Positions 452-2,884 of a stretch of DNA of 8,834 bases are shown piece after piece. Below the pieces are notes generated by a model that was given only the letters and a program-made list of their open reading frames with translations, had not been told where the DNA came from and did no database searches. Numbering within the stretch: position 1 is the first letter of the stretch; each line of letters begins with the position of its first letter. Position numbers and translations under genes: made by a program. The stretch is from a virus (taxonomy: Duplodnaviria; Heunggongvirae; Uroviricota; Caudoviricetes), in IMG/VR virus record IMGVR_UViG_3300014515_000027; one strand, written 5' to 3'.

Positions 452-640
452 TTATCCAGCCGGTGTTTCGTTATTCAGGTACAGCGATACTTTTTTTAGC
501 GGGAGGCATTCACCAGAAATTTTTTGCTCGTCTCTTGCCTGGAGGCAGGATTCTTTACTTGCATAAATTCCGGTAATCACATTCTGTGATTCACCCGTTA
601 TAAGAAAAACCGTCATCATCAGTGCAAATGCTGAAGTCAT
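452..640 (-). CDS. Small hypothetical protein (62 aa) with a short hydrophobic N-terminal segment
   Basis: ATG at 640 with GGAG about 7 nt upstream on the minus strand; 4-nt ATGA overlap with the preceding gene. N-terminus MTSAFALMMTVFLITG is hydrophobic. No recognisable family. Confidence 0.4.
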   Translation of the reverse strand: MTSAFALMMTVFLITGESQNVITGIYASKESCLQARDEQKISGECLPLKKVSLYLNNETPAG

Positions 641-825
641 TGACGTTCTCCGAAAATACCAAGTTCAAGAAGAGCAATTCGGGAAAGTATGGAATTATCA
701 TTGAGCAGATAAGGCTCATATTTCCTCATATTAATGGCATCTTCAGTAAACTCCCGGTTACTGAGCAGAACACCAATATCAAAACAACCTTCAGACGTAT
801 TAACGTTTGGTAATAACGTTTCCAT
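637..825 (-). CDS. Small hypothetical protein (62 aa), leftward operon
   Basis: ATG at 825 with GAGGA about 7 nt upstream on the minus strand. Its stop overlaps the start of the next gene as ATGA at 637-640, suggesting translational coupling. No recognisable family. Confidence 0.45.
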   Translation of the reverse strand: METLLPNVNTSEGCFDIGVLLSNREFTEDAINMRKYEPYLLNDNSILSRIALLELGIFGERQ

Positions 826-1396
826 TATCGCGTCCTCAACAATGAATTTTGTGATGCAGTGCCTGGTGCCTCCAGGTGACGTTAACCAGTTAACAATTAA
901 CGCCGGGTTAGTTGATGCTCGTTACGCCCGTAAAATACCGCCTTACTGCTTTAACTGTTCCGCGTGCGCATAGCCGCATTCACCGCATCACAAAATTCAC
1001 TTTAAAAAGGGCGGCAGAGCAGTCACGGAGTAAAACTGATACCGCCAAATGTCACCAGAAAATTGATAACAGAGGGCGTTGTAGCGGGGTTGTCACTTAA
1101 GCGTATGGTCAACCTGACAACCCGGTGCATTTTCTGGAGCAATGGAGGAAACCCCAGCCATACTTACCGCCGCGCCATTTCGCGGAGTGCCACAACCGGA
1201 AGCGCACGGTCGAACTAAATTTAACGACACCGTACAGAGAGACCAATTTCGCCGTGCGCTTTCGCGTTATGCCCTGACTTTTCAGGGACATATCCTTTCA
1301 GTAAGCTGTCAGTGCCGGATGCTCACCCGTGTCCGGCGCACGCACTCCACCTGACCCGTGGAGAACTCCTTAATTACCAACCCTCAGGAGGGTGAA

Positions 1397-1675
1397 ATGG
1401 ATAAAAAGCAAATTGAGGCCCTGCAATCTATTATTGAAGAACAAGATGAAGCTATCAGGATTCTTTCATATCGCACTGATATGATACTAAATATGCTTTC
1501 TGCATTAACGGCTGCGCTTGGTGGTACAAAAACAAACGTATACCGCGAAGTTGTTATTCAACAGATAGATAAATTTGAAAAAACCATACCAGGTATTAAT
1601 GCTCATCTTGCAGAACAAGAGAAAGACCATGCTCTTATGGCAATTTCTTCAGTAGCTCTCCCGAAAGTTGAGTAG
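1397..1675 (+). CDS. Hypothetical protein (92 aa), predicted coiled-coil/helical; rightward-oriented gene embedded in leftward-operon territory
   Basis: ATG at 1397 preceded by AGGAGGG (1386-1392). The track ORF begins at an upstream GTG (1358) that has no ribosome-binding site. AT-rich by eye. Its 3' end overlaps the convergent gene 1635..2036 by about 40 bp. Confidence 0.55.
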   Translation: MDKKQIEALQSIIEEQDEAIRILSYRTDMILNMLSALTAALGGTKTNVYREVVIQQIDKFEKTIPGINAHLAEQEKDHALMAISSVALPKVE

Positions 1676-2036
1676 TTTTAATTGTTGTTTTGAAATAATC
1701 ACTGCTTTCACATTTGAGTGATTTCATGGCAATCCAAATGCGGGCCTCTGTGCCTGCATTTGGTTCCAGTTGCTGTAGACGTTTTGCGTCTTCCAAAAGT
1801 AAGGCGATAATGTGTTTCAGCTTCTCATCATTTGCTTGATTCTTGTTTTCAGGCGAATTCTGTCCGCCGAATAGGCGCTTCTCTTCATACAGACCTATAA
1901 AGGCACGACGCACGTTACCGGATATAGTATCGATGGTTTCCTTTTCTACGGTACTCAGGTCAAGAGTCGCCAGTTGAGAGCGAACCACATTCGATGCCAT
2001 TTCCTGGAATGGTACTGGTAAATCTTTAAATTCCAT
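1635..2036 (-). CDS. Hypothetical protein (~133 aa), AT-rich accessory gene
   Basis: Internal ATG at 2036 has GAGG with a 6-nt spacer upstream (minus strand); the track start at 2048 has no ribosome-binding site. Product begins MEFKDLPVPFQEMASNVVRSQLATLD... with no family motif recognised. Sits 11 nt downstream of the stop of 2048..2281. Confidence 0.6.
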   Translation of the reverse strand: MEFKDLPVPFQEMASNVVRSQLATLDLSTVEKETIDTISGNVRRAFIGLYEEKRLFGGQNSPENKNQANDEKLKHIIALLLEDAKRLQQLEPNAGTEARIWIAMKSLKCESSDYFKTTIKTTQLSGELLKKLP

Positions 2037-2464: not shown

Positions 2465-2884
2465 CTATGATGCGTTTTGTGCTTTCTTTTTACGGATTTC
2501 TTCGTAGATCATATTGTAATACTGTTTTTTCTCTTCAAGAGTTTTTAATAATTTATCCGCTTCACTTTCTGGCAGTTCGTCTAAGAGATCTAAAAAAATA
2601 CGTTGTCGTGGCGTTAGAACCCTTGTTTCATAACTGGAGGCTGTGTTCGTTGATGATGAAACGATACCATCCATCCATCCCCGGGGTAACCCAAAGGACT
2701 CTTCGATAATCTCCACCATATCATCAGCGATCCGTTTTTTTCCCTTTTTCCCCTCTGGGTACAACATTCTTGATACATAAGAAGGCTCGCGCCCGATCTT
2801 TCTGGCCACGTTAACCGCTTTACCATCGCATTTCTCATCACGAATTTTGATGAGTTGCTGTCGTCTAAATTCATATTTGTCCAT
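2465..2884 (-). CDS. Prophage repressor, HTH DNA-binding protein without a LexA-like S24 peptidase domain (RacR-like)
   Basis: 139-aa ORF. Its N-terminal segment KAVNVARKIGREPSYVSRML looks like a helix-turn-helix; no peptidase-like C-terminal region. Divergent from the ydaS-like gene and flanked by operator palindromes. No Shine-Dalgarno before the ATG, but a TATTAT -10-like hexamer lies about 7 nt upstream, suggesting a leaderless transcript as for lambda cI. Confidence 0.8.
   Translation of the reverse strand: MDKYEFRRQQLIKIRDEKCDGKAVNVARKIGREPSYVSRMLYPEGKKGKKRIADDMVEIIEESFGLPRGWMDGIVSSSTNTASSYETRVLTPRQRIFLDLLDELPESEADKLLKTLEEKKQYYNMIYEEIRKKKAQNAS

What the first reader, a model, noticed from the sequence alone, without database searches (positions are those of the whole stretch)
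826..1396. About 570 bp with no convincing coding sequence, including a GC-richer island and a long-stem hairpin
Between the small leftward genes and the AT-rich cassette, none of the track ORFs has a credible ribosome-binding site or recognisable product. The stretch from about 1100 to 1360 looks GC-richer than its neighbours. A 9-bp stem (GGGTTGTCA at 1087-1095, TGACAACCC at 1115-1123) is followed by a T-containing tract, and a GTTAAC-containing dyad lies at about 880-900. This could be a decayed gene, a regulatory region such as a nut-like antitermination site or terminator, or a non-coding RNA.
Basis: seen in the sequence. Interest (0 to 1): 0.35.

Follow-up and report, generated by a model that had tools for sequence, protein, structure and literature searches.

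The report
DicF small RNA and its leaders
The "empty" 570 bp is the untranslated middle of a well-known prophage operon, read on the opposite strand, that carries the cell-division-inhibiting small RNA DicF, so the finding is ordinary and already explained.

Summary
Window 826-1396 is the long non-coding stretch of a dicBF-type operon in a Rac/Qin-like lambdoid prophage of E. coli. It is about 90% identical to the K-12 Qin locus. Matches occur in 4715 of 5426 complete E. coli genomes.

The parts, on the minus strand:
- **DicF sRNA**, 1061-1009 (Rfam 77 bits, threshold 48), with its own intrinsic terminator.
- **Upstream leader.** It has a 22-pair stem (1271-1247/1215-1191). Its 3' arm holds the position of the published RNase III cut that makes the roughly 190-nt pre-DicF.
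- **The dicB leader** (1001-841), closed by a 21-bp duplex.

No ORF in the stretch is conserved.

Side observations:
- The dicB leader is a structural relative of Rfam STnc100, with strong covariation.
- The same leader precedes kilR, kil and tciA in other phages.
- KilS of Rac shares part of the DicF scaffold.
- A variable opposite-strand cargo gene abuts the leader.

Verdict: already known, low interest.

The parts
1283..1384 (-). Outer leader module ('type A'), shared with K-12 Qin. It is replaced by other modules in other prophages. It contains small hairpins at 1358-1339, 1337-1314 and 1312-1274.
   Evidence: Homology with K-12 starts at about 1384. At least three alternative modules occupy this position in 35 relatives. 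The hairpins keep pairing through compensatory changes (helices 1-4).
1191..1271 (-). Long stem-loop of 22 pairs with a variable apical loop. This is the inferred RNase III substrate that creates the 5' end of the long pre-DicF.
   Evidence: Found as an inverted repeat. Helix 6 is 97.5% paired in 35 sequences, and the variation is wobble-compatible. The Rac-type homologue keeps the stem through an A-U to G-C change. Published work shows RNase III makes the 5' end of the 190-nt species.
1200..1204 (-). Inferred RNase III cleavage position, the 5' end of the long pre-DicF. This RNA is 194 nt here and about 190 nt in K-12.
   Evidence: The K-12 position lies 137 nt upstream of the DicF 5' end. 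It maps to window 1202, inside the 3' arm of the stem. The nominal length comes from the literature, so the position is good to a few nucleotides.
1062..1190 (-). Domain D2 of the pre-DicF leader. Its three hairpins are at 1185-1170, 1156-1136 and 1123-1087. It ends at the RNase E site.
   Evidence: About 70 nt next to DicF are almost invariant in 99 relatives. Homologues precede other terminator-type RNAs in phage cdtI and in the P1/P7 ban leader, where P1 is annotated 'dicF-like region'.
1087..1123 (-). It has 9 perfect pairs and extends to 14 pairs with an internal loop.
   Evidence: A compensatory U-A to C-G change occurs in P1 and P7.
1009..1061 (-). dicF gene, the 53-nt DicF sRNA. Its 5' end lies at an AU|UUU RNase E-type site.
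   Evidence: Rfam RF00039 scores 77 bits against a gathering score of 48, E = 4e-16, over the full model. The sequence is identical to K-12 DicF except for A in place of G at nucleotide 12. Phage Tritos annotates DicF at the equivalent place.
1004..1046 (-). DicF intrinsic terminator. The stem spans 1046-1010 and the U run spans 1008-1004.
   Evidence: Structure line of the Rfam alignment. Helices 14 and 15 are 99.6-100% paired. The literature assigns the 53-nt 3' end to Rho-independent termination.
841..1001 (-). Structured dicB leader with an STnc100-like fold. It is closed by a 21-bp duplex (1001-981 with 861-841). This duplex is the inferred RNase III substrate that gives the 72-nt DicF 3' end at about 990.
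   Evidence: A 19-nt inverted repeat is 95% complementary, and its 15-bp perfect core was never reached in 200 shuffles. STnc100 scores are sub-threshold: 31.1 bits here and 34-43 bits in relatives. Covariation is strong: 23 of 37 pairs carry compensatory changes and 0 of 500 shuffles reach this.
878..904 (-). It is hairpin 3 of the dicB leader.
   Evidence: Helix 22 is 100% paired. In the wider family, 6 of its 10 pairs show compensatory changes.
862..876 (-). CCUGG-AGGCA-CCAGG hairpin. This is the most conserved motif shared with STnc100.
   Evidence: U-A is exchanged for G-C in 6 of 20 sequences.
637..837 (-). dicB. The Shine-Dalgarno GAGGA is at 837-833, the ATG at 825-823, and the stop at 637-639. 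The Shine-Dalgarno starts 3 nt after the long duplex.
   Evidence: Pfam DicB E = 6.4e-37 over the full length. RefSeq annotates dicB in the identical CE10 locus.
1387..1675 (+). Opposite-strand cargo gene of 92 aa (phrog_18692, about 35% GC). Its GGAGG ribosome-binding site at 1387-1391 lies at the homology break.
   Evidence: The same slot and ribosome-binding context carry at least 11 unrelated small ORFs in 43 of 105 loci.

Best explanation
Window 826-1396 is the long untranslated segment of a dicBF-type operon. It is transcribed leftwards (minus strand) from the pL-like promoter of a Rac/Qin-like lambdoid prophage of E. coli.

Gene order on the minus strand:
1. repressor (2884-2465)
2. promoter region
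3. ydfA-like DUF1391 gene (2281-2048)
4. a 137-aa ORF
5. leader
6. dicF (1061-1009)
7. dicB leader
8. dicB (825-637)
9. ydfD-like gene (640-452)

How it works, by homology with the K-12 Qin locus:
1. The repressor keeps the operon silent.
2. When it is transcribed, RNase III cuts the 22-pair stem at about 1202. This releases a long pre-DicF, 194 nt here.
3. RNase E cuts at AU|UUU (1062/1061) to give the 53-nt DicF. The DicF 3' end is its own Rho-independent terminator.
4. Read-through transcripts continue into dicB.
5. RNase III cuts the 21-bp duplex that closes the dicB leader. This gives the alternative 72-nt DicF and separates it from the dicB mRNA.
6. DicF, with Hfq, represses ftsZ and metabolic mRNAs by base pairing. 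DicB blocks septation through MinC.

Shown here: the identity of DicF, DicB and their neighbours; the homology; the stems and their conservation; and the absence of conserved ORFs. Inferred: that processing happens at the same sites in this copy, and what the D2 hairpins do. My best guess for D2 is that it presents the RNase E site in a loop and stabilises the long precursor.
For: - DicF is detected at 1009-1060(-) with 77 bits against a gathering score of 48. It differs from K-12 DicF by one base.
- DicB, DUF1482 (YdfD) and DUF1391 (YdfA) are found in the expected order and strand.
- RefSeq annotates dicB and leaves this gap empty in the 100% identical CE10 locus.
- Phage Tritos annotates DicF at the equivalent place.
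- K-12 Qin aligns at about 90% identity from 1384 to 826.
- The published processing scheme is summarised. RNase III makes the 5' end of the 190-nt form. RNase E makes the 5' end of the 53-nt form. The 3' end comes from the terminator or from RNase III (72 nt).
- The K-12 190-nt 5' end maps into the 3' arm of the 22-pair stem.
- The 72-nt 3' end, about 990, falls in the 5' arm of the 21-bp duplex.
- The sequence at the 5' end, AU|UUU, fits the RN|WUU RNase E preference (my own knowledge).
- The minus-strand RNA is strongly structured, z = -4.95.
- 96% of cells are paired in 35 relatives.
- ORFs are not conserved.
- Matches occur in 4715 of 5426 complete E. coli genomes.
Against: - There is no expression or end-mapping data for this particular copy.
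- Within E. coli the core is too conserved to give compensatory changes. Support for those two stems therefore rests on wobble-compatible changes and on a few changes in distant relatives.
- The simple terminator scan did not call the DicF terminator, because its loop is longer than the scan allows.
- ydfB and ydfC of K-12 are absent here. They are replaced by a 137-aa ORF and an opposite-strand gene, so the upstream part of the transcript differs from the studied one.
- The cut positions are transferred from nominal RNA lengths and are only good to a few nucleotides.
Confidence: 0.93

Rival explanations
1. Besides its minus-strand role, the outer part of the stretch (about 1283-1396, perhaps further in) also serves the plus strand. 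It would act as 5' UTR, and possibly promoter, for the opposite-strand cargo gene at 1397-1675. That would explain why diverse cargo genes share the same junction and ribosome-binding site. This would be an additional function, not an exclusive one.
For: In 43 of 105 DicF loci a small opposite-strand ORF starts 275-337 nt from DicF, behind a conserved ribosome-binding context. At least 11 unrelated proteins occupy the slot. In Rac-type phage 673R7 and in K-12 Rac the slot holds sieB. The window's cargo gene is AT-rich and annotated in RefSeq.
Against: No sigma-70-like promoter was found on the plus strand anywhere in 600-2400, and I found none by eye. K-12 Qin keeps the same module without any opposite-strand gene. 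The cargo proteins have no known families, apart from one borderline GhoS match.
Confidence: 0.25
2. The D2 domain (1062-1190), which includes the reader's hairpin, is a cis-acting antitermination RNA of the nut or put type. It would let RNA polymerase read through the DicF terminator into dicB.
For: D2 always sits just upstream of an intrinsic terminator: DicF here, and other terminator RNAs in phage cdtI and in P1/P7. In cdtI it lies about 300 nt downstream of pL. Read-through transcripts into dicB exist in K-12. About 70 nt are almost invariant, more than a simple spacer needs.
Against: BoxA-like matches are at chance level and none is on the right strand inside the stretch. The ORFs between the repressor and DicF that were scanned have no N-family match. 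Rfam has no match. Rac-type loci lack D2 yet keep the terminator-leader-kilR arrangement. The known role as part of the 190-nt processing intermediate is sufficient.
Confidence: 0.07
3. The stretch holds a real small protein gene, or the decayed remnant of one. An example is the 60-aa minus-strand ORF 1109-1291, which matches phrog_8854.
For: phrog_8854 matches over its full length, E = 4.9e-34. Some phage records annotate hypothetical proteins here.
Against: Among 99 unique relatives the start codon is kept in 12 and the ORF is intact in 9. K-12 has ATT in place of the ATG. There is no Pfam hit. The ORF lies across the RNase III stem and its product is very basic, as expected from a GC-rich structured RNA read in frame. 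RefSeq annotates nothing here.
Confidence: 0.03

Closest known systems
dicBF operon of cryptic prophage Qin, E. coli K-12 (ydfABC-dicF-dicB-ydfD)
   Same: Same sRNA, with 52 of 53 bases identical. Same dicB and ydfD-like genes. The untranslated leader on both sides of dicF is about 90% identical. The stems at the published RNase III positions and the RNase E site are the same.
   Different: ydfB and ydfC are missing. In their place are a 137-aa ORF and an AT-rich gene on the opposite strand. A 25-nt patch (1127-1150) is a different allele with a 4-nt length difference. The host prophage appears more complete, with integrase, excisionase, exonuclease and replication genes.
KilS sRNA and the kilR leader of prophage Rac (E. 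coli K-12; Bar et al. 2021)
   Same: The scaffold is the same: an RNase III-type stem, then a terminator-type sRNA beginning UUGGCGG.AUCAG, then the same structured leader, then a small FtsZ-directed division inhibitor. An opposite-strand gene (sieB) sits upstream. The annotated 5' end of KilS lies in the 3' arm of the stem, like that of the long pre-DicF.
   Different: The single-stranded seed region differs, and there is no D2 domain, hence no 9-bp hairpin. The downstream gene is kilR, not dicB. The source paper suggests KilS may have its own promoter.
Rfam STnc100 (RF02076), an sRNA of Stx and other lambdoid phages
   Same: The core fold is shared: closing helix, GGUGAAU, hairpin 1, a variable hairpin, hairpin 3, and the CCNGG-AGGCA-CCNGG hairpin. 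Pairing is kept through many compensatory changes.
   Different: The window scores below the family threshold, 31 against 47 bits. The closing helix is 21 bp here and 8 bp in STnc100. STnc100 ends in its own terminator and lies in the late operon after stxB or after Q. The element here runs into the dicB ribosome-binding site.
'dicF-like region' in the ban-operon leader of phages P1 and P7, and the tciA leader of P7 and D6
   Same: The P1/P7 ban leader has a D2 homologue (78-79% identity) followed by a terminator hairpin. P7 and D6 carry the STnc100-like leader directly upstream of tciA/terB.
   Different: The terminator RNA is unrelated in sequence to DicF. tRNA genes separate the two modules. 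The operon is controlled by the C1 repressor and ends in the ban helicase.

Membership tests
DicF RNA (Rfam RF00039) | Covariance-model score at or above the curated gathering score, over the full model | tested here: met
   77.0 bits against 48, E = 4e-16, model positions 1-52 of 52, at 1009-1060(-).
DicF RNA (Rfam RF00039) | Both published pairing regions keep the K-12 sequence. The 5' region pairs with xylR and the 3' region with ftsZ and pykA. | tested here: met
   52 of 53 bases are identical to K-12. The one difference is A for G at nucleotide 12, a position that also varies (A/G/T) among relatives.
DicF RNA (Rfam RF00039) | Rho-independent terminator hairpin followed by a U run at the 3' end | tested here: met
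   Stem 1046-1010 and UUUUU at 1008-1004.
DicF RNA (Rfam RF00039) | [quoted passage not shown] | not testable with these tools
   Only the substrates could be examined. The stems and the AU|UUU site are conserved at the K-12 positions.
dicBF operon (Qin type) | dicB and ydfD-like genes downstream of dicF on the same strand, and a ydfA-like gene upstream behind a repressor gene | tested here: met
   Pfam DicB 6.4e-37, DUF1482 1.5e-14, DUF1391 6.6e-27. The repressor-type ORF at 2465-2884(-) and the cro-like ORF are, with the CE10 annotation.
dicBF operon (Qin type) | ydfB and ydfC between ydfA and dicF | tested here: not met
   Homology to K-12 stops at about 1384. The window has a 137-aa ORF and an opposite-strand 92-aa gene instead.
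STnc100 (Rfam RF02076) | Score at or above the gathering score of 47 bits | tested here: not met
   31.1 bits, E = 8.6e-4, at 793-1011(-). Bona fide copies score 85-208 bits.
STnc100 (Rfam RF02076) | Shared core secondary structure supported by covariation | tested here: met
   94.9% of cells are paired. 23 of 37 pairs carry compensatory changes. 0 of 500 shuffles reach this, and slid controls give at most 8.
STnc100 (Rfam RF02076) | Own 3' terminator hairpin (model positions about 170-200) | tested here: not met
   In the window this part of the model aligns poorly over the dicB ribosome-binding site and start. No terminator-like site was called there.
Lambda-type nut site | boxA (YGCTCTTTA-like) followed by a boxB hairpin on the transcribed strand, with an N protein encoded in the operon | tested here: not met
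   The four boxA-like matches in the window are at chance level (95 of 200 shuffles do as well). None lies on the minus strand inside 826-1396. The operon ORFs scanned have no N-family hit.

The most novel reading that the evidence does not exclude
The stretch is one instance of a modular RNA cassette that phages shuffle. The cassette has three parts:
1. An RNase III-type stem, with or without the D2 domain.
2. An exchangeable terminator-type sRNA whose seed differs between phages. Examples are DicF in Qin type, KilS in Rac, and other versions in phage cdtI and in P1/P7.
3. An STnc100-class structured leader.

This leader is placed directly in front of toxic or late genes: dicB, kilR, kil, tciA, and the gene after stx. 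Its long closing duplex would gate their expression through RNase III.

On this reading STnc100, the dicB leader and the kilR leader are one RNA family. DicF and KilS would be seed-swapped products of one processing scaffold. The opposite-strand cargo slot next to the cassette (sieB in Rac) would be part of the same mobile unit.
Probability: 0.45. Interest if true: 0.4.

Novelty: already known. Interest (0 to 1): 0.15.

Why it matters
For the finding itself, little. It rediscovers DicF, one of the first bacterial sRNAs described, together with the processing signals mapped in 1990 and confirmed in 2023. It also shows that automatic annotation (RefSeq for CE10 and many phage records) still leaves this locus blank or fills it with spurious ORFs.

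The side results could matter modestly to people who study prophage RNAs:
- They tie the unexplained Rfam family STnc100 to leaders of division-inhibitor genes that are known or likely RNase III substrates.
- They suggest that KilS and DicF share an origin and a maturation route.
- They point to a variable opposite-strand gene slot, occupied by sieB in Rac, whose other occupants are all uncharacterised.

Tried and rejected
- **Pfam and PHROG scans of all ORFs in the stretch**. Only phrog_8854 matched. I rejected it as a gene because the ORF is intact in only 9 of 99 relatives.
- **Promoter and terminator consensus scan of 600-2400**. It found nothing on the plus strand. It also missed the DicF terminator because of its long loop, so it was uninformative for the main question.
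- **Covariation in an E. coli-only alignment** (A2). The core is too conserved, so distant relatives had to be fetched.
- **boxA search for a nut site**. Matches were at chance level.
- **Pfam and PADLOC scans of ten cargo-slot proteins**. Nothing was found except a borderline GhoS hit.
- **Faubladier and Bouche 1994** (PMC205167), which first described dicF-like sequences in other prophages, is not held. I could not check how much of the modular picture it already contains.
- **Search by eye for a sigma-70 promoter for the cargo gene** on the plus strand of 826-1396. None was convincing.
- **Whole-region RNAalifold**. It broke the DicF terminator in favour of long-range pairs, so I folded domain by domain instead.

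Full report
**What the window is.**
The ORF list and domain scans show a lambdoid early region. Its parts are:
- A repressor-type ORF at 2465-2884(-), and divergent cro-like and replication genes on the plus strand.
- On the minus strand, a ydfA-like DUF1391 gene (2048-2281) and a 137-aa ORF (1635-2048).
- After the stretch in question, dicB (637-825, Pfam DicB E = 6.4e-37) and a ydfD-like DUF1482 gene (452-640).

The 571-bp stretch is 100% identical in many E. coli chromosomes, for example O7:K1 strain CE10. There RefSeq annotates integrase, excisionase, an exonuclease pseudogene, DUF1482 and dicB to the left, and leaves the stretch blank. Matches occur in 4715 of 5426 complete E. coli genomes, with a median of two places per genome.

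**Checking the observation.**
- GC is 0.52-0.54 across 1001-1400, against 0.345-0.41 in the flanks.
- The 9-bp inverted repeat at 1087-1095/1115-1123 is exact. Six of 200 dinucleotide shuffles contain an equally long perfect short-range stem, so alone it is only mildly unusual.
- The GTTAAC dyad is an 11-pair hairpin at 904-894/888-878.
- The ORFs have no Pfam match apart from one stray sub-threshold hit.
- They are not maintained among 99 unique homologous loci. The minus ORF 1109-1291 is intact in 9, the plus ORF 1142-1354 in 3, and the plus ORF 912-1100 in 5.
- The match of 1109-1291 to phrog_8854 reflects repeated ORF calling on conserved DNA. K-12 has ATT where the window has the ATG.

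**What it is.**
An Rfam scan finds DicF on the minus strand at 1009-1060. It scores 77 bits against a gathering score of 48, over the full model. The K-12 annotation gives a 53-nt RNA, which corresponds to 1061-1009. It differs from K-12 DicF at one base.

The K-12 Qin locus (ydfA-ydfB-ydfC-dicF-dicB-ydfD) aligns at about 90% identity from window 1384 to 826. This covers the whole ydfC-dicF and dicF-dicB spacers.

**How it most likely works.**
Published work on K-12 shows the following (Faubladier et al. 1990, as summarised in PMC5069750; Ragunathan et al. 2023, PMC10448788):
- DicF is cut out of the polycistronic transcript from dicBp.
- RNase III generates the 5' end of a 190-nt form.
- RNase E generates the 5' end of the 53-nt form.
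- The 3' end is either the Rho-independent terminator (53 nt) or an RNase III cut (72 nt).

I mapped these onto the window.
- The 190-nt 5' end lies 137 nt upstream of DicF in K-12. It corresponds to window 1202 and gives a 194-nt RNA here. This is inside the 3' arm of a 22-pair stem (1271-1247 with 1215-1191).
- The 72-nt 3' end, about 990, is inside the 5' arm of a 21-bp duplex (1001-981 with 861-841) that closes the whole dicF-dicB spacer. The 15-bp perfect core of this duplex was never reached in 200 shuffles.
- The DicF 5' end lies at AU|UUU. This fits the RN|WUU preference of RNase E (my own knowledge). It is predicted to sit in the loop of a small hairpin.
- The dicB Shine-Dalgarno (GAGGA, 837-833) begins 3 nt after the duplex.

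The identity and position of these elements are shown. That they are cut in this copy is inferred by homology. The minus-strand RNA is much more structured than shuffles, z = -4.95.

It belongs to a roughly 130-nt domain (D2, 1062-1190) of the long pre-DicF. D2 also has hairpins at 1185-1170 and 1156-1136.

Within 35 diverse E. coli-type loci the hairpin is almost invariant. It therefore gives no compensatory changes there. In P1 and P7, one pair changes from U-A to C-G. The neighbouring GGCNGGG hairpin changes G-C to U-A between alleles.

D2 homologues always precede a terminator-type RNA:
- DicF here.
- A different RNA about 300 nt downstream of pL in phage cdtI.
- The element annotated "dicF-like region" in the P1 ban leader.

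Rac-type loci lack D2. I think D2 most likely helps present the RNase E site and stabilises the long intermediate. An antitermination role is possible but has no positive support, since boxA-like matches are at chance.

**The dyad region is part of a wider RNA family.**
Rfam STnc100 gave a sub-threshold, full-length hit over the dicB leader (31 bits against a gathering score of 47). Relatives score progressively higher: K-12 34, a Klebsiella prophage 35, D6 40, P7 43. Genuine STnc100 copies score 85-208 bits.

I aligned 20 such elements and counted pairs.
- 94.9% of cells are paired.
- 23 of 37 pairs carry compensatory changes.
- 0 of 500 shuffles reach this, and slid-partner controls give at most 8.

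The element lies directly upstream of dicB, of kilR in Rac-type phages, of a kil cluster in Klebsiella prophages, and of tciA/terB in P7 and D6. STnc100 proper follows stxB or Q and ends in its own terminator. The dicB leader is thus a structural relative of STnc100, not a member by Rfam's criterion. The papers I could search on STnc100 do not mention DicF or dicB.

**Relation to KilS.**
K-12 Rac carries the annotated 98-nt sRNA KilS between sieB and kilR (PMC8175672). Its 5' end (GUGGGAGUGCGCCUCCGGUUGU) is the 3' arm of the homologue of the RNase III stem. Its 3' end is a DicF-like terminator, and the STnc100-like leader follows. KilS therefore looks like the Rac counterpart of the long pre-DicF, with a different seed. 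The KilS paper does not mention DicF.

**The left edge of homology.**
Homology among prophages breaks at about 1383. Exactly there, a GGAGG ribosome-binding site and an ATG (1397) open a plus-strand, AT-rich, 92-aa gene (phrog_18692).

In 43 of 105 loci a small opposite-strand ORF starts at the same place behind the same ribosome-binding context. At least 11 unrelated proteins occupy the slot. None has a known family apart from one borderline GhoS match. In Rac the slot holds sieB.

No plus-strand promoter was found. Whether the leader also serves this gene stays open.

**Verdict.**
- The feature is already known, being DicF with its processing leaders in one more prophage.
- The secondary observations are modest leads that would need experiments. 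They are the STnc100 kinship, the shared DicF/KilS scaffold, and the cargo slot.

Noticed in passing
window 841-1001 (-); loci L125, L126, L127, L131, L133, L134, L128-L130: The dicF-dicB spacer shares a covarying fold with Rfam STnc100. The same element sits directly upstream of kilR, a Klebsiella kil cluster and P7/D6 tciA. All of these score below the STnc100 threshold (31-43 bits against 47).
   Followed up: yes
window 1383-1675 (+); 43 of 105 DicF loci from IMG/VR: A variable opposite-strand 'cargo' gene starts exactly at the homology break next to the DicF leader. It sits behind a conserved ribosome-binding context. At least 11 unrelated small proteins occupy the slot, and sieB occupies it in Rac. 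No promoter was found and no function is known.
   Followed up: partly
L137 (K-12 Rac) 1906-2003 (-); L133 1107-1205: The annotated sRNA KilS occupies the DicF position upstream of kilR. It begins in the 3' arm of the homologue of the RNase III stem. It looks like a seed-swapped, D2-less counterpart of the long pre-DicF. The KilS paper does not mention DicF.
   Followed up: partly
This occurs in the P1/P7 ban leader (annotated 'dicF-like region' in P1) and about 300 nt downstream of pL in phage cdtI.
   Followed up: partly
window 1129-1137 and 1055-1063 (-): A 9-nt segment (CCAGAAAAU) in the variable patch 1127-1150 is perfectly complementary to the RNase E site plus the first 7 nt of DicF (AUUUUCUGG). 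The K-12-type allele of the patch lacks this complementarity. The window-type allele is in a minority of loci, for example L014 and L063. It could sequester the DicF 5' end, or it could be chance.
   Followed up: no
window 7554-7729 (+) and ORF 7667-7882 (+): There is a strong Rfam sok (hok/sok antitoxin RNA) hit, 120 bits against 59. From memory, the overlapping Hok-like ORF starts like Hok/Gef proteins (MKQQKAMLIALIVICLTVIVTALVT) and then diverges. This suggests a frameshifted toxin.
   Followed up: no
window 7854-7935 (+): A sub-threshold isrK-like hit, 27 bits against 50, lies just after the hok/sok locus.
   Followed up: no
window 1635-1675: The minus-strand 137-aa ORF (1635-2048) and the plus-strand cargo gene (1397-1675) converge and overlap by 41 nt. 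Transcription of the dicBF-type operon would therefore be antisense to the whole cargo gene.
   Followed up: no
hits H24/H51 (Aeromonas phage AP1) and H23/H76 (Actinobacillus phage vB_Apl-pPE4): Phage records assigned to Aeromonas and Actinobacillus hosts carry 81-89% identical copies of this E. coli-type dicF/dicB leader. This looks like contamination, chimeric assembly or a mislabelled host.
   Followed up: no
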